From the NCBI GenBank assembly GCA_963514005.1, contig OY740782.1, forward strand, positions 77,190,001-77,254,000: a stretch of 64,000 bases of DNA. The letters run 5' to 3'. A model generated the notes under the pieces. The model had not been told where the DNA came from and made no database searches. It saw only the letters and a program-made list of their open reading frames with translations. Position numbers and translations under genes: made by a program. The DNA is from Raja brachyura (Eukaryota). Shown one piece after another: positions 48,794 to 64,000 of this stretch. Position 1 is the stretch's first letter, and each line of letters begins with the position of its first letter.

Positions 48794-48887
48794 TTGAAGA
48801 AGGGTCTCGACCTGAAACGTCACTCTTTCCTTCTCTCCAGACGATGCCTGTCCCGCTGAGTTACTCCAGCATTTTGTGTCTATCTTC
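48794..48887 (+). mobile_element. Half-copy of the palindromic hammerhead-motif repeat family
   Basis: ttgaagaagggtctcgacctgaaacgtc...cccgctgagttactccagcattttgtgtctatcttc aligns to the right arm of 63332-63425. Confidence 0.85.
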
Positions 48888-51800
48888 CGTTTATATATAT
48901 AATTTGTTTTAATTTAATATCGGACACTATTTTAGTGAAGTGAAATATGATCATGAAGTGAAATTATATTTTGTATATAAATATTATATAGTATATACAA
49001 TATATTCCTCTGAATACCTCATAATATATAAGACGCGTGTTATCTTAATCGTTCCAAATGTTATTTGGAAATTGTACAAAATTGCACCAGTTGGTTGTAC
49101 AAGAACGAACACATTCGGCACACGAAATGCCCTTTGACCTTATTTGCCAAAAATAATAATGTAACCGTTATTAATTCAAATGCCGCAACTTTGTGGGTGC
49201 ATATGAATAAACAACTATTTTATGTTAATCTATAAAATGTTTGTTTACTTGTTGATATGTATCTAGTAAAATGCAGAGAGTAATTGTTTTCAACTATTAT
49301 GCTGTGGTACCTCATAAACCGCAAACTCAAATGTCTGGGTTTGTATGTGATATAATGTTCTGTTTTATGAAGATGTTTCGTTGTTTGCACCATATATTAG
49401 TTACGTAACTGACTTAACATTGGAATTCCATTACATATTATTTACAAAGAGTTCCATATTACGATCTATATTGTCAGCAATGTCAAACCAAATATATGTT
49501 ATCTTTGTACTTATATATAGTCCATTATAAATCCCTAACCTAGGCAGTCGCAGGCCTGCCCTGCTGTTGACATTCAACGTGATTTCAGCATTTCAGTTTG
49601 GTTTTATGTATTCTAAAACAACGAACAATTTGCTTATGTGCATTGAAGTACCGTTGATCCAATTATAGTATAAAACGACCACACAAAGGCTTTATTTCGT
49701 TGCCCATTGGAATAATACATTTAGTTTCAAATTGGAGTGGCGCAATAGTATTTAATAGTGTTTTTAAAGCATTCAACAATTTTGAAGTCAATTTGGCGTG
49801 TTTTGCAAAGAGCCACATAAGCAAGTTAGGTACAGCGTACATTTATTAAAAATCCAATTCAATTAATTCTGAGTTCATGTTTGAATTCGGTATGGATTTG
49901 ACATTACACATTCGATTGGAGTAATTCTCAATAAATATTAAAAATACATTATTGCGAAAAGTAATAGTTTTGTATACACATTAATTTCATGATGGTAAGT
50001 TATGCTTAACAGTGAGCGCAAAGAAAAACGGGTTTTGCAGGATTCATACAAATTTACGAAAGTGTAATACTTCCTGCAGTGCATATTGTTTTCCCTTCGA
50101 ATTGTTAATACGGCTTCAATCGATTGAAGAGAAGGAACAATTCAGATAAACAATTTTACCAAGACAAATGGGCATGCCGGCAGAAAATACAAAATCTATG
50201 ATGTGAATGGATACATACTTCTAAAAAGTGGAAATCAGCGAAATTAAATCCAAATCTCTGCCTTAATACGGCTTTGGTTTTCGGAAATGGCTTATAGATT
50301 TAATCGTGTGACGAGGGGCTCTCTTACAATTGTAGATTATACAGCGTATATATGTCTGTAAACATGATTCCTGGCGTTTAGCTTCGTGCATTAAATTATC
50401 ATTATATATTTTTACTGACAGTCTGCAGTAACGCATGCGAAATTATCCCTAAGAACTAACCCAAGGTTGCTGGCGTTATTCCTTAAGGTAATTTTAGGGG
50501 GGGGGGGGGGGGGGTGGGGGGGATGCATTATCGTTTTCCCAATACATTATTTTATTCGCTCGGAGCTGCGCTGGATACACTAGAAGTACATTAAGTTACG
50601 ATAATTTACGCAAAAGATGCACGGTTCACGGTGAATCATATGCACCAACAGAAGAGCGGAAGAGCCGAAGCATATTAACATTATGGAACGCCAATTCTAT
50701 ATGTAGCAATGTTTCATGTTTGGTTATGCTGATGTTAATGTTGACTGTATGGCAAATTTTGCTTGACTATACATTTTGCTATAAATAACAAGAAATGGCG
50801 AGTCACATCTGAGAATCTGACGAGATAAATCTGATTGTTTGAAGGGGTACGAAGCACTATTGTTCTTGCATTTGAGATACTTAAGACTGGAGCAAAACGG
50901 ATAATAACCGAAGTAAACATTTGCCCAGAATTTATTCATTTGGAGATACTGATAACTGTTAGTTATACCTGCTTTGTCTGGATCAATGATTACTGTTAGC
51001 TAATAAAACAGTGTTTGGTTCTCATTTCCTCGTAAACAAAAAAAATCGCCTTTTTTTACACAAGATGCAGTAGAAAAGTATAATCTAATAATTAGACCAG
51101 CCTTGATCAGAGACAATGTGGGTGGTTCTCCTCGAGTATTTCCCAACCAGCGCACGGATGAATGTTGCAATAGGATGCCGTGATTGGTTCGCTGCGTCAT
51201 GTGATGAATGTAGTATTTTATAATCCCACGACATTTTGACAAATCAACTTGCATGTTGCAAACAGCAGCCCCCGAGTTGTTGATTCGTGTGCATTAGGAA
51301 AAAGGCACTAGAAAAATAAAGTATGGTTTAAGGTTCACTATTAGAAGTTCAACATTATTTAGATGTAAATGCAACAAAATAGATCGGAGACTTCAATAAA
51401 TTTGCTTACCTCTCAAATAATAATTTCAAGGTAGACCACTTTCAAGAGACCACTTTCTGTAATATCCAAGATAAATCAGAGTACTCTGCATGACTGGAAT
51501 TTATCTGTAATTCTATATTTTGAAATTAAAAATTGAGGAAATTAATATTTTTAGTGCAGATCAAGTTTTAGCTTTACACGTCCACAGCCTTCAGTGACGG
51601 ATTATGCAATACCACACACAATTTCCAGTACTTCCTATTTATAACGTATGTAGACTATATGCTATAAAATTCTAAAAATGCAGCGTAAAATTCCTTACTC
51701 AAATATTGTGTAGAACAGCTCGGTAATTCCTTTAGTTTTGCAAGATTAGAAGCGAAATTCGGCAAATATTTGACCAGATACACTGTACAGAATATAAGTG

Positions 51801-59549: not shown

Positions 59550-61210
59550 TACTGGGCAACAATTTGAAATCAGATTTTCTGTCATAAAGGTCATATGGTA
59601 AGATTCTATTTATAAAATACAATCACAATGTATTCACTGCTCCTAGAAATGTCTCATATCGTACTTTATACTCCTGTTTATAGAAGTAAGGCGATGTGTT
59701 AAATCCACCAGAAAAACGTGGTGCTGCTCAATTATGCATGTACTACATTTAATAAAGTCATTTCTCCATTTTGGCCGCATTCATTGCAGTGACATATGTG
59801 ATGGTATTTCCTAAATCAATTAACTTGCAATACTTTGCATATGTCTGTGTGTGCATCTTACGAGTCATATTTGGGATATTTATACGATTGTTTATTCAGC
59901 ACTGCACATTGATTACTCAAAAGACTCTGCACATGATTCCTTTCTGAAATATTGTGGAATGTCCAGGAGCCTAAGTGAGATTTTAAAAATGATTAATTTG
60001 TTTCGCTGCCCATGAACAATTTTTGCAAAATTGTAACATTTGTATCAATAATTGCATATACAATACAGATTGAACATGGTTCCCTTTTCATCGCTTAATA
60101 CTTATAGATATAAGAAACATGCATTCATCGTTATATTGAAACATGTCGTCAAGATAGACTTTATTGATATATTGGATATCACTGGAGAATCACCATCACT
60201 TGTGAGACTCAGATTTGGCAAGGAATACGTATATGTCATAATGTTTGCATTACTGGAATTGTCAATCTTATTGTACAGCAATACACCAAATATTTTACAT
60301 GGGAATTTGTATCGTATTGGTCACTGTGAAGCATTGACAAGTTTGAAACTAACAATTCCCATTTAATCCACATTTATTAATGTCAGTCCAATATTCAACA
60401 CAAAATGTCATTCACCTACATTTGCAAATATAGCTTAAGGATACAATTTATTGAATTAGAATGAATGTAATAATTACATTTGTATATGTACTTTACTTGG
60501 TTTTTCGCGCAGGTATGTGCGTGAGGAGGGGGTTGTTTACACATGGTATTACCTTATTTATGCTTAGTAAGTGTAAATGTATTTGCCAATGTTGCCATCT
60601 GAAATGGGTGAACATTTAGAAAAAAGGTAGCTGTTGCACACTGTCAACTGCTTCATAATAATCATTACCCATTGCTGTACTGTTATCATTGATATTATTA
60701 CATGCAAATTTGCCCTTTAATTAAACAACGCAATTTGCAAAGAAAACACATCGTCTTTTCGGCAAATGTATTCTAACGAAGTACAACTGGAATCTTATTT
60801 ATCAAACAACTTGCTATGCGTAATAAGAAACCCAATTGTGCACATGTTTTGTTTCATTCGAAATTTGCCACTAATTTAAATGTTTAGCCATCTGTTCATA
60901 CCTTTCGGGGGTGGGGGGGGGGGGGGGGGGGGTGCACCTTTTATACTTTAAACCTATCTACAATGTCATTTTTTTTTCGTCTTGAGGACGCTCTTCGTAA
61001 ACATTAATCAAAGGTAAATAAAAGGACATTTTCTGTGTAACGTTAGACACAAAAAGCTGGACTAACTCAGCGGGACAGGCAACATCTTTGTAGAGAAGGA
61101 ATGGTTGACGTTTCGAGTCGACACCCTTCTTCGGATTTTGTTTTGGTCAATAATAACTGCATTATTAGTTACAGTTAGTTGGAAGCTAACGATCCTTTTT
61201 TTCTCTGACG
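59550..61210 (-). pseudogene. Possible heavily decayed HoxA14 pseudogene (split homeobox remnants)
   Basis: Collinear minus-strand fragments RQRKK/RI..S.QLT....A (61210-61157), VTQKMSFYLPL (61041-61009) and CAG|KI*FQ...Q (59578-59552). Eye comparison to a recalled Hox14 homeodomain only. Confidence 0.35.
61045..61134 (-). mobile_element. Half-copy of the palindromic hammerhead-motif repeat family
   Basis: agacacaaaaagctggactaactcagcgggacaggc...gacgtttcgagtcgacacccttcttcgg aligns to the left arm of 63237-63330. Confidence 0.85.
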
Positions 61211-62511
61211 CAGATCTTCCAGAAATCGGAATTCGGTCCGCCATTACAATATTTTACTCCCATTAAAAAAAAAGGTTTGGACCCCTTTAAGATATTTTCG
61301 CTTTTGCTTCTTATTCTAATTGCAACCCTCTCTGGTTTGTTCGTCTGCTATCCTGCCCAAACGTCACCATTATCACTGCCACACCCTCGCCCATACCCCA
61401 GCAAACAGAAACAAACGCACCATAATCGCTACTAATTTTACATGTTCGTTTTGTCGTTGTACTTCAGGGGTCAGAAAGCAGGTTTCCTCGCCAGAACTGT
61501 TGGGTTTTGCCATCTGGAAATTGATATTATGGATTCCCTACTTTTAACTGAGTTCTTGGGTGGCCAGGCCAGGGAGAATCATTGCTTCGAGCTGCGAATG
61601 CAGCTAAAATCAACGCTAATTATTAATTATTTGATTTAATTGGTCTACTGTCTTATAGACTTTTTACTTTGCATGATTGTGCCTAATGCATAATAGGATC
61701 GTCACCGAATTGAATGGAAAAAAAATGCATTTCACCGTACTTAGGTGTACATGACAATAAAGTACAATTAAACCATTGTTTTATTCACTATGACTTTTGT
61801 AAAGCTTTATACTTACCTAAAAAATCATAACCAGCGATTAAAAGTACATGGTAGTATTTAATGCATTATTTTCAATAAACTATAAACTAATAGCTAAACC
61901 TCCTTAGGTAGTTTTACGTACATATATGTGGAGTTCTGTCTTCCTGTCGACACTCATAATAAACTCAAGGAAAACGATTCAAGTATTATGGAAATTTAAA
62001 AAATCATCCCTAGGTTAAGACCCATATTTTATAAATATGGAACATCAATAGATTTAAGTATATACGAATTACGATTAAAAAGGAAAATATGTTTTCTGTG
62101 ATGTAATGTAACTGGTACCCACACTATATTAAATCAACATTTTATGCATCGTATACATGTATTAAGTGTGAAGCTAGACTATATGCCAAAGGTACAATAG
62201 TAAATGTCTAGGACGATATTAGTACACGTCATTCATTTGGTACTGTTGCATTAGCGTTGATTTTAGTACAAAATGTAACTTAATTGCACATTTTAATATA
62301 TTGATATCTATGTTTCTTAACTGTAGTTACTGTCGCTTTTTTTCCTATACACTATATTGGTAAGCTGGATATATGAACTAGTTCTGGACATTAATATATC
62401 TTGAAAATGTCATATCTAATATTTAACTCCCGGTTATTGGAACGCATATTTGTGACTGCAAAATCCAGAATGGACATCTGCGATATATACATAGATATAT
62501 AAATTTTCCAA

Positions 62512-62577
62512 AGATGCTGTCTGTCCCGCTGATTTACTCCAGCCTTTTGTGTCTATCTTCGGTTTAGAGCAGTTCCT

Positions 62578-62580
<3 letters not shown>
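62512..62580 (+). mobile_element. Truncated copy of the same repeat family
   Basis: agatgctgtctgtcccgctgatttactccagccttttgtgtctatcttc...gcagttcctt. Confidence 0.8.

Positions 62581-62650
<70 letters not shown>
62578..62650. repeat. (TA)n-(TG)n compound microsatellite
   Basis: Directly visible; abuts the repeat fragment. Confidence 0.95.
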
Positions 62651-62653
<3 letters not shown>

Positions 62654-63234
62654 TATACACATCTATCTACATGATTCTTTTTATTTTGTTTTTCCGTGCT
62701 AATAAATCATTAATTCTTGAAGAATCGTCGCACTGTATACTATCCAGCAATTATTTACGGTGCACCTCTATTAGGTAATAGCTAAATGTATTCCCAAACG
62801 AATAATTATTCAAAACCAGTTCATCGTTGCTCTTGGAATTTGTACGGGCTTGGTCTTTGAATTTATGTGGAAACATTTCGAAACAAAATCTGCACATCCT
62901 TCTTTACAGTTGCCTCCGATAAAGTTTGCACGAAAGGAGGGTCCGATTATTTCCTCTTTCTCCAACAAAGGTGTTTCCTGGGTAGTAAGCTGTACCTAGT
63001 CAGCTTACCTGCAGGCTGTTGAAAAACTGTCACAATATAATGATAACATGTTACTATTACATTGTACGGTTGCTTTTAGACCCAATGCCTTCTTTATGTC
63101 AGTTTATGTACCCCAAATGTAAAACACGATCGACTTGGTACTAAACTCGGTCCTATAGTCGTAGATTGGCGCTCTTTCTGCTGCATGGAGGCAGCGTGAA
63201 ACTACAATAATCAGAAGATCTAAATGAAGTCTTC

Positions 63235-63455
63235 GGGGGTTACACAAAAAGCTGGAGAAACTCAGCGGGTGCAGCAGCATCTAAGGAGTGAAGGAGATAG
63301 GCGACGTTTCGGGTCGAGACCTTTCTTCAGACTGAAGAAGGGTCTCGACCCGAAACGTCGTCTATCTCCTTCACTCCTTAGATGCTGCTGCACCCGCTGA
63401 GTTTCTCCAGCTTTTTGTGTAACCCTCGATTCTCCAGCATCTGCAGTTCCTTCTT
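63235..63455. mobile_element. Palindromic non-autonomous element with a 14-bp target-site duplication (Penelope-like derivative inferred)
   Basis: 98-bp inverted arms around a single A at 63331 with 3 mismatches; direct repeat TAAATGAAGTCTTC at 63221-63234 and 63456-63469; CTGAAGA-stemloop-GAAAC core on each strand. Confidence 0.9.
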
Positions 63456-64000
63456 TAAATGAAGTCTTCCACGTGGAAAATTATTTGAGTATTTGCGCGA
63501 GGTAGTTGGTATCAGGCAGTGTAGTCCAATAGCATGTGAGGTATTCTATTTGATAATATTTAAGGGAAAGATGAGACTGCTATGTTTCGCAAATGTATTG
63601 CATATTTTCCGACTATTTAATAGATGGCAAATTATTTTAATTATCACAAAATACTGCATTTATACCTACAAAAACGCAACACAGGTGATTTTATTTTGCT
63701 TTTGCTTTTGGTTGATCGACAATTTACCGAATCTTTCTAAATTAATCTAGCCTGAAAATGTTTGATTGAAAATGTTTTAAATCGATCGTAAACTGTCTCC
63801 AGTGACTAACTCGTTCTCTGTGCATCCCCACCATACCGACAGAAGGCAGGTTATGAATTATTTTCCGTTGGATTAAAAAATCAGGGATGCCACCAGCATA
63901 TCGCCAGTCTGTTCATCGGGATATCTCTTAATCTGACCAGTCAGATGAGAAAACCGATGAGTCTCTATATCTCCACAGAAACCCTGTCTGACTCTTGCAT

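What the first reader, a model, noticed from the sequence alone, without database searches (positions are those of the whole stretch)
63221..63469. Young palindromic retro-insertion with back-to-back hammerhead-ribozyme-like cores and a 14-bp TSD
Seen: 63233-63429 is a ~197-bp hairpin (98-bp arms, 1-nt centre, only 3 mismatches, all G-T). A 26-nt unpaired tail follows, and the element is flanked by an exact TAAATGAAGTCTTC duplication. Reading outward from the centre on each strand gives CTGAAGA-A-(G/A)GGTCTCGACCC-GAAACGTC, i.e. the hammerhead core CUGANGA / helix II / GAAA with a self-complementary ACGU in place of helix III. Known: Penelope-like retroelements carry minimal, dimer-dependent hammerheads in their terminal repeats and often insert with inverted ends. 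The long TSD and asymmetric tail fit target-primed retrotransposition better than a DNA MITE. The arms share variants absent from the other three copies, implying one arm was copied from the other. I cannot find a helix I partner, so cis cleavage is doubtful. Inference: a non-autonomous ribozyme-derived hairpin family able to produce long dsRNA or cruciforms next to a Hox cluster.
Basis: partly seen in the sequence, partly recalled or inferred. Interest (0 to 1): 0.75.

Follow-up and report, generated by a model that had tools for sequence, protein, structure and literature searches.

The report
Palindromic Penelope retroelement stub near HoxA13
This is a real, fairly recent 221-base hairpin-shaped scrap most likely left by a Penelope-like jumping gene just outside a Hox cluster; it is of a kind already described, its two ribozyme-like cores are probably dead here, and its junctions hint at how such elements insert.

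Summary
The hairpin, tail and 14-bp duplication are real. The insert is 63235-63455: two 96-nt head-to-head arms and a 28-nt one-sided tail. Two related organisms carry the empty site with one target copy, so it is one insertion, younger than a 4-5% flank divergence. The family is very abundant (83,000-111,000 contigs laid per run). The same hammerhead core occurs in 122 loci of other animal DNA. In 28 it lies 78-165 nt behind a Penelope-type RT/GIY-YIG ORF end, and 5 distinct loci repeat this layout: hairpin, one-sided tail, 10-14-bp duplication. That matches published Penelope-like (PLE) insertions with an inverted pseudo-LTR and tail. An ORF of this very family was not found, so membership rests on layout and motif. 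Both cores are damaged, lie on opposite strands and are buried in the hairpin, so cleavage here is unlikely. No Hox role is shown. The scan noted the same kind on other DNA before (e1-9889456, e1-7858806). One lead remains: junction polarity and 1-3-nt target pairing at the short arm fit priming from both target nicks with two cDNAs joined at a micro-palindrome.

The parts
63221..63234 (+). Left copy of the 14-bp target-site duplication; its last 2 nt are complementary to the first 2 tail bases (possible primer-template pairing)
   Evidence: single copy at the empty site in organisms C and D (records 20 and 26)
63235..63330 (-). Short (tail-less) arm: inverted pseudo-LTR stub, 96 nt, reads in element sense on the minus strand
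63303..63330 (-). Minimal hammerhead-type core on the minus strand; first pair of helix II broken by the change at 63322; helix I only 2 bp
63327..63335 (.). Junction: 4+1+4 micro-palindrome that pre-exists in the parental family, overlapping the 5' edge of the hammerhead core; centre base 63331
   Evidence: table 7: 314-381 contigs per run match through 63335 and then go on with G-rich non-palindromic sequence
63332..63359 (+). Minimal hammerhead-type core on the plus strand (helix II 63340-63351, 4-nt self-complementary word in place of helix III, notional cut after 63359); no helix I pair
   Evidence: no Rfam hammerhead match
63332..63427 (+). Long arm: pseudo-LTR stub in sense orientation, 96 nt
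63428..63455 (+). 28-nt one-sided tail; element end lies 116 nt from the start of helix II; holds the 3' strand of a predicted 9-bp stem (63379-63387 with 63435-63443; monomer fold not significant, z -1.26)
63456..63469 (+). Right copy of the 14-bp target-site duplication
48794..48893 (+). Solo, one-directional family copy beginning at the core, no tail, no clear duplication; between HoxA13 and HoxA11
61044..61134 (-). Solo family copy beginning at the core, no tail, no duplication found
62507..62580 (+). Solo 3' fragment of the family with part of the tail, next to a TA microsatellite
   Evidence: junction contigs table 5

Best explanation
A single, heavily 5'-truncated insertion of an endonuclease-bearing Penelope-like retrotransposon (PLE): only the hammerhead-bearing end repeat was copied, twice, head to head, with the PLE tail on one side. 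Shown: one insertion event, 14-bp duplication, empty site in relatives, very abundant parent family, junction at a pre-existing micro-palindrome. Inferred: a PLE RT/GIY-YIG protein supplied in trans nicked both target strands 14 nt apart; reverse transcription began at two sites 28 nt apart (short end and tail end), stopped at the 5' edge of the hammerhead and switched template at the micro-palindrome, giving the mirror half. The cores are inherited cargo and most likely inactive at this locus. The insertion is probably neutral debris about 8 kb upstream of HoxA13.
For: Empty site: organisms C and D run contiguously from 63220 to 63456 (records 20 and 26; flanks 4.1% and 5.2% divergent). Organism A holds both junctions with no differences (records 4, 8). 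The core motif marks PLE ends elsewhere: 32 of 122 loci have a tblastn hit to the RT/GIY-YIG ORF of L005, and in 28 the ORF end lies 78-165 nt upstream on the same strand. L005 is a near-complete PLE with an inverted end repeat. 9 of 122 loci (8 distinct) are head-to-head hairpins and 5 of those 8 have a 10-14-bp duplication plus a 46-55-nt one-sided tail; their long ends lie 117-150 nt and short ends 73-101 nt from helix II, against 116 and 88 here. Published: inverted pLTR, palindromes at the inverted junction, 31-bp tail, 8-10-bp duplications (PMC3846280, passages); 30-40-bp tail often at one end only (PMC8557442, passages); two RT start sites bounding the tail, both strands cut and extended, AT-rich targets (PMC11167929, parts 1-2 of 4); minimal hammerheads in pLTRs, including opposite-strand pairs 100-700 bp apart (PMC4209133, parts 1-2 of 4).
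Against: No ORF of this family was found: no hit of the L005 ORF in the window, exact-core scans empty in viral, metagenome and prokaryote collections, peptide search empty. The 122 loci share only the core with the window and were selected by a pattern derived from it, so they are analogues. 90 of 122 loci had no PLE hit, and 3 of 8 distinct hairpins had no duplication or tail. Helix I is 0 and 2 bp here against a mean of 3.4 bp in the analogues; Rfam finds no hammerhead even at E 10. The tail (28 nt) is slightly shorter than the published 30-40 and the analogues' 46-55. No single contig bridges the centre in organism A, and that run may be the source of the window. Organism B had no cover at the site.
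Confidence: 0.87

Rival explanations
1. The palindrome is itself a non-autonomous mobile unit: a hairpin master copy is transcribed, or self-primes on an antisense template, and is moved whole by PLE enzymes (the first reader's 'hairpin family'; close to the antisense self-priming idea of PMC3846280). This is a sub-model of the best explanation.
For: The + strand is a continuous antisense copy of the parent from 63235 through 63335 and then sense through the tail (table 7), which antisense self-priming also predicts. About 29-31% of laid contigs fit two places of the stretch, as a palindrome or several copies would give.
Against: The other three window copies are one-directional; 314-381 contigs per run continue past the centre into non-palindromic sequence. 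In the analogues the centre polarity differs between loci, and most family members there are solo.
Confidence: 0.2
2. A DNA-transposon derivative (MITE or foldback element) with long terminal inverted repeats.
For: Near-perfect long inverted repeat of about 200 bp, high copy number, AT-rich target.
Against: The right arm ends 28 nt inside the duplication, so the ends are not symmetric; a 14-bp duplication is longer than those of the common cut-and-paste superfamilies (recalled); solo one-directional copies start at the core; the core marks PLE ends in 28 of 122 other loci.
Confidence: 0.03
3. A SINE-like unit moved by a LINE (L1, L2 or CR1), with the inversion made by twin priming or by two separate opposite insertions.
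For: A 14-bp duplication is in the L1 range (recalled); the family has SINE-like size and abundance.
Against: No poly(A) or simple-repeat 3' end; one duplication encloses both arms and the empty site lacks everything between, so it is one event; L1 twin priming inverts part of one copy and does not duplicate it (recalled).
Confidence: 0.05
4. The hairpin has been recruited as a functional RNA or DNA structure for HoxA regulation, or the cores are active ribozymes here.
For: About 8 kb upstream of HoxA13. PMC2746220 (section 8) predicts an unexplained stem-loop upstream of Hoxa13 in one skate only; whether it is this kind of hairpin could not be told.
Against: Absent in two close relatives. Each core has a defect; one transcript holds only one sense core; predicted helix II probability is 0.00 in transcripts across the element and under 0.01 in isolated arms. 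No RNA run was laid.
Confidence: 0.04
5. The mirror half is an assembly or library fold-back artefact.
For: The window is a gapped draft (983 N); no contig in organism A bridges the centre.
Against: The arms differ at 3 sites; both junction contigs in organism A match without differences and face in opposite directions; the duplication and the clean empty site in two relatives fit a real insertion.
Confidence: 0.01

Closest known systems
Insertions of endonuclease-bearing Penelope-like elements with inverted pLTR, junction palindrome and one-sided tail (PMC3846280; PMC8557442)
   Same: Head-to-head inverted end repeat, palindromic junction, tail on one arm only, variable-length target duplication, strong 5' truncation.
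   Different: No ORF remnant at all; arms meet directly at the hammerhead edge with a 1-nt centre; duplication 14 bp (8-10 in the rotifer cases read); tail 28 nt.
Minimal type I hammerheads of metazoan PLEs (PMC4209133; reviewed in PMC6765202)
   Same: Catalytic boxes, extra base before helix II, self-complementary word in place of helix III; opposite-strand pairs already reported in Schistosoma.
   Different: Published ones have helix I of 4-5 bp (2 bp in the Drosophila virilis variant); here 0 and 2 bp, one core lacks the first helix II pair, and both are locked in a long hairpin.
Poseidon of Anolis carolinensis (PMC11167929)
   Same: 3' end about 110-120 nt past the hammerhead's helix II, two end points bounding a tail, AT-rich target.
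   Different: There the ORF starts at helix II; no such ORF start was shown here. The ORF-linked analogue L005 has a cysteine-rich linker as described for Neptune and Nematis, so the clade of the window's family is open.
Non-LTR retrozymes of animals (10.64898/2026.07.22.740005; PMC7229834, search listing only)
   Same: Non-coding, hammerhead-bearing, derived from PLE end repeats, present in a cartilaginous fish.
   Different: Retrozymes are head-to-tail tandems with intact hammerheads in each unit; this is head-to-head, so no same-strand dimer can form.

Membership tests
Penelope-like element (EN+) | Autonomous partner with PLE-type RT and GIY-YIG endonuclease joined to this same repeat | tested here: inconclusive
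   Not found for this family (no eukaryote assembly was searchable). Met for other families with the same core in 28 of 122 loci.
Penelope-like element (EN+) | Pseudo-LTR that may be inverted at the 5' side, with palindrome at the junction | tested here: met
   Head-to-head 96-nt arms joined at a pre-existing micro-palindrome.
Penelope-like element (EN+) | Tail of about 30-40 bp on one end only | tested here: met
   28-nt one-sided tail; slightly short of the published range.
Penelope-like element (EN+) | Variable-length target-site duplication created on insertion | tested here: met
   14 bp, single copy at the empty site in 2 of 3 other organisms laid; the third had no cover. 10-14 bp in 5 analogues.
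Penelope-like element (EN+) | Hammerhead motif within the end repeat | tested here: met
   Core motif in both arms and in 2 of 3 solo copies; core 26 and 25 of 28 identical against 46 of 63 downstream in each.
Minimal type I hammerhead ribozyme | Catalytic boxes and self-complementary helix III word | tested here: met
   Both cores.
Minimal type I hammerhead ribozyme | Helix I of about 4-5 bp closing the core | tested here: not met
   0 bp (+ core) and 2 bp (- core); analogues average 3.4 bp in 86 distinct contexts against 1.55 with shuffled partners.
Minimal type I hammerhead ribozyme | Helix II with the conserved first G-C pair, able to fold | tested here: inconclusive
   Complementarity intact in the + core, first pair broken in the - core; predicted probability under 0.01 in every context folded.
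Minimal type I hammerhead ribozyme | Self-cleavage as dimer or with PLE protein | not testable with these tools
   Needs in vitro assay.
Non-LTR retrozyme | Head-to-tail tandem units each with an intact hammerhead | tested here: not met
   Units are head-to-head on opposite strands.
MITE / TIR DNA transposon | Terminal inverted repeats flush with the target duplication at both ends | tested here: not met
   28 nt separate the right arm from the duplication.
DIRS-like element | Inverted termini without target-site duplication | tested here: not met
   A 14-bp duplication is present and confirmed by the empty site; lack of duplications in DIRS per PMC8969392 passages.

The most novel reading that the evidence does not exclude
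These stubs record a two-ended insertion mechanism: a PLE dimer nicks both target strands, primes one cDNA at the short start site (helped by 1-3 nt of pairing between the target end and the template) and a second at the tail start site; both stop at the hammerhead's 5' edge and anneal through the micro-palindrome there, each then templating the other's extension. It explains the tail on one arm only, and why the parent-type centre goes with the tail-less arm here, in L100 (clear) and L081 (weak) but with the tailed arm in L037. A genome with tens of thousands of copies makes this countable.
Probability: 0.35. Interest if true: 0.55.

Novelty: new member of a known kind. Interest (0 to 1): 0.27.

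Why it matters
As a locus it matters little: it is one of very many scraps and is missing in close relatives. As a class it is a compact fossil of the PLE insertion reaction, whose inverted-repeat step the papers read here call unresolved (PMC8557442, PMC3846280). ORF-less stubs keep only the two start points, the stagger and the switch point, so counting centre polarity, tail side and target pairing over thousands of copies could separate fold-back, antisense self-priming and two-ended priming. Practically, such hairpins can be miscalled as MITEs or microRNA-like RNAs (one search gives sub-threshold microRNA hits), and the site is a clean presence/absence marker among related species.

Tried and rejected
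Whole-genome search: no genome held, so no family consensus, copy count or upstream ORF from this animal. Exact core scans: 0 in viral, metagenome and prokaryote genome contigs; degenerate scan 0 in viral contigs. The degenerate metagenome scan stopped after 9 of 64 parts, so its 122 loci are a sample, and 42 of them hold only short flanks. Rfam: only mir-196 at gathering level; at E 10 only generic hairpin matches below threshold, no hammerhead. Pfam on 74 of 74 long frames from the loci gave weak RT (L005, below cutoff) and GIY-YIG (L040) hits; tblastn was more informative. Peptide search with a 45-residue frame through the 48794 copy for fused ORFs: 3 candidates, none scored; weak evidence. 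Six runs listed as RNA or possibly RNA hold 0.05-0.26 of the words; none was laid, so they say nothing on expression. Summed contig depth is not a copy number and was not used as one. Organism B: no cover at 62957-63190, inconclusive. Bacterial promoter/terminator scan uninformative. Monomer folds not better than shuffles. A covariance model from the analogue cores was not built because they were selected by the window's own motif. PMC5785218 (dimer-cleaving PLE hammerheads) was not held; seen only as a citation. Supplements of PMC2746220 could not be read and its figures are not held; they may bear on whether this hairpin was predicted before. Seven paper searches surfaced no description of this family or of ORF-less head-to-head stubs as a class; most subscription papers and repeat databases are not covered.

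Full report
Observation. The feature is as described, with a small boundary correction. The arms pair at 95 of 98 positions and the 14-mer lies at 63221-63234 and 63456-63469 and nowhere else in the window. The outer two bases of the left arm are the last two of the duplication, so the insert is 63235-63455: two 96-nt arms, one centre base and a 28-nt tail. The hairpin is far beyond chance (z -27), and no direct repeat of 12 nt or more arose in 287 random placements of the same search. The window is a vertebrate HoxA cluster on the minus strand (homeobox frames, gene names assigned by me from recall; mir-196), and the insert lies about 7.9 kb upstream of the HoxA13 first-exon frame. That the animal is a cartilaginous fish, probably a skate or ray, is my recollection of this repeat and was not tested.

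One insertion, recent in relative terms. I laid contigs of four public runs from four organisms on 60500-64000. Organism A holds both junctions without differences (62665-63259 and 63431-64000); this run may be the window's source, and no single contig crosses the centre. Organisms C and D each have one contig that runs from 63220 straight into 63456, that is, without the insert and with one copy of the target; their flanks differ from the window by 4.1% and 5.2%. Organism B has no cover there. The arms differ by 3 of 96 (3.1%, 95% interval 0.6-8.9%), compatible with insertion after those splits. 'Young' is therefore relative.

The family. Between 82,695 and 110,980 contigs were laid per run, with depth piled on the bins that hold family copies; this shows great abundance but is not a copy number. 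Three more copies lie in the window, all one-directional; two begin at the hammerhead core. In each run 314-381 contigs match the left arm through 63335 and then continue with G-rich, non-palindromic sequence, so the parent unit is not a hairpin but has a 4+1+4 micro-palindrome at the 5' edge of the core, exactly where the two arms meet. 221-360 contigs in three runs break off after 62560, which by my alignment of the copies corresponds to the short arm's end within a base or so, suggesting a recurrent short end point besides the tail end. The arms' sequence variant appears in loose-end consensuses of all four runs, so sharing it does not prove arm-to-arm copying.

Link to Penelope-like elements. 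No assembly of this animal was available, and exact scans were empty. A degenerate core pattern found 123 stretches in a partial scan of metagenome contigs, 122 held as loci; their neighbouring frames include animal-type genes, and they share nothing with the window beyond the core. In these, bases outside the pattern form helix I: mean 3.4 bp in 86 distinct contexts against 1.55 with shuffled partners, maximum 2.0 in 2000 shuffles (related families are not independent). L005 carries a frame with RT and GIY-YIG motifs, a core 133 nt behind it and an inverted end repeat in front. 32 of 122 loci have a tblastn hit to it, and in 28 the ORF end lies 78-165 nt upstream of the core on the same strand; 90 have no hit. 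Nine loci, eight distinct, are head-to-head hairpins; five of the eight have a 10-14-bp duplication and a 46-55-nt tail on one side, three do not. In the matching null on these loci 5 of 300 placements gave repeats of 17 nt or more and none gave 10-16. So the motif marks PLE ends, and the whole layout of the finding recurs beside them. What is missing is an ORF joined to this family's own unit; the L005 ORF has no hit in the window and a peptide search found nothing.

Published picture. PMC3846280 (passages) describes inverted pLTRs, palindromes at the inverted junction, a 31-bp tail on one of them, 8-10-bp duplications and a verified empty site, and proposes self-priming on an antisense template. 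PMC8557442 (passages) shows the tail at one end and calls the inverted structures unexplained. PMC11167929 (parts 1-2 of 4) shows that a lizard PLE protein cuts and extends both strands at AT-rich DNA, starts reverse transcription at two internal sites that bound the tail, about 111-118 nt into an ORF that begins at hammerhead stem II, is predicted to be a dimer, and needs no ribozyme cleavage for insertion. The long end here is 116 nt from helix II. PMC4209133 (parts 1-2 of 4) defines the minimal hammerhead and reports opposite-strand pairs 100-700 bp apart. The retrozyme preprint (part 1 of 5 and passages) reports such tandems and their PLE origin, including in one cartilaginous fish. PMC2746220 (passages and section 8) predicts a stem-loop upstream of Hoxa13 in one skate only and suspects another is two opposed repeats; figures and supplements were not available, so overlap with this feature is unknown. 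PMC6765202 and PMC8969392 were seen as passages.

Ribozyme activity. Unlikely here. The plus core has no helix I pair, because the centre base is the complement of the parent's; the minus core has 2 bp of helix I and has lost the first helix II pair. A transcript holds only one core in sense, and the predicted probability of helix II is 0.00 in transcripts across the element and under 0.01 in isolated arms. Rfam finds no hammerhead. It looks like a PLE hammerhead but fails the helix I test, so I do not file it as a working ribozyme.

Mechanism. Inferred: nicks 14 nt apart, reverse transcription from two start points 28 nt apart, arrest at the hammerhead edge, template switch at the micro-palindrome. 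Two details constrain the route. First, the plus strand is a continuous antisense copy of the parent from the short end through the centre, then sense through the tail; a cDNA begun at the short end cannot copy the tail from itself, and one begun at the tail end would leave the other centre base, unless that base later mutated. Among analogues the parent-type centre goes with the tail-less arm in L100 (17 of 19 against 10 of 19) and weakly in L081 (15 against 13 of 18), with the tailed arm in L037 (17 against 14 of 18 for the best-fitting relative); L044 is symmetric and L114 was not scored. Second, in 6 of 6 duplicated elements the target end next to the short arm is complementary to the first 1-3 tail bases, 2 or more in five (no null was run). 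Two cDNAs primed from both nicks and annealed at the micro-palindrome explain both polarities; antisense self-priming explains the window's. The sample is small, so this stays a lead.

Earlier notes. Two AI notes from this scan describe the same kind in other genomes; none matched by sequence or place. I did not check their loci. One gave the wording that the mirror half is built anew at each insertion; my centre comparison was run after reading it and partly agrees.

Verdict. Real, and most likely a stub of a known class of retroelement insertion, without evidence of function at the Hox locus. New member of a known kind; interest 0.27.

Noticed in passing
window 48794-48893: A solo copy of the family sits between HoxA13 and HoxA11, inside the cluster, where complex repeats are said to be rare (PMC2746220).
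   Followed up: partly
window 63328-63364, organism C contigs (table 5c): Joints from about 63360 back to 63328 with 1-5 letters between suggest head-to-tail tandems of the bare 35-nt core, which could form dimers; the kind of joint was not printed, so this is tentative.
   Followed up: no
L005 1005-3663 and 4108-4740: Near-complete PLE with a frameshifted RT/GIY-YIG ORF, cysteine-rich linker and inverted end repeat, beside a DNA polymerase B fragment on the other strand.
   Followed up: partly
L068 67-116: A 50-nt head-to-head hairpin in another animal family, joined right at the core's 5' edge as in the window, without duplication or tail.
   Followed up: partly
window 63379-63387 with 63435-63443; L044 and L081 monomers: A long-range stem whose 3' strand lies in the tail is predicted in the window unit and in two analogues; folds are not significant against shuffles.
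   Followed up: no
window 61670-61786: A second, less abundant repeat signal (summed depth about 100 times the unique level in organism A), table 2.
   Followed up: no
window 23996-24069, minus strand: mir-196 precursor between HoxA10 and HoxA9, as expected.
   Followed up: no
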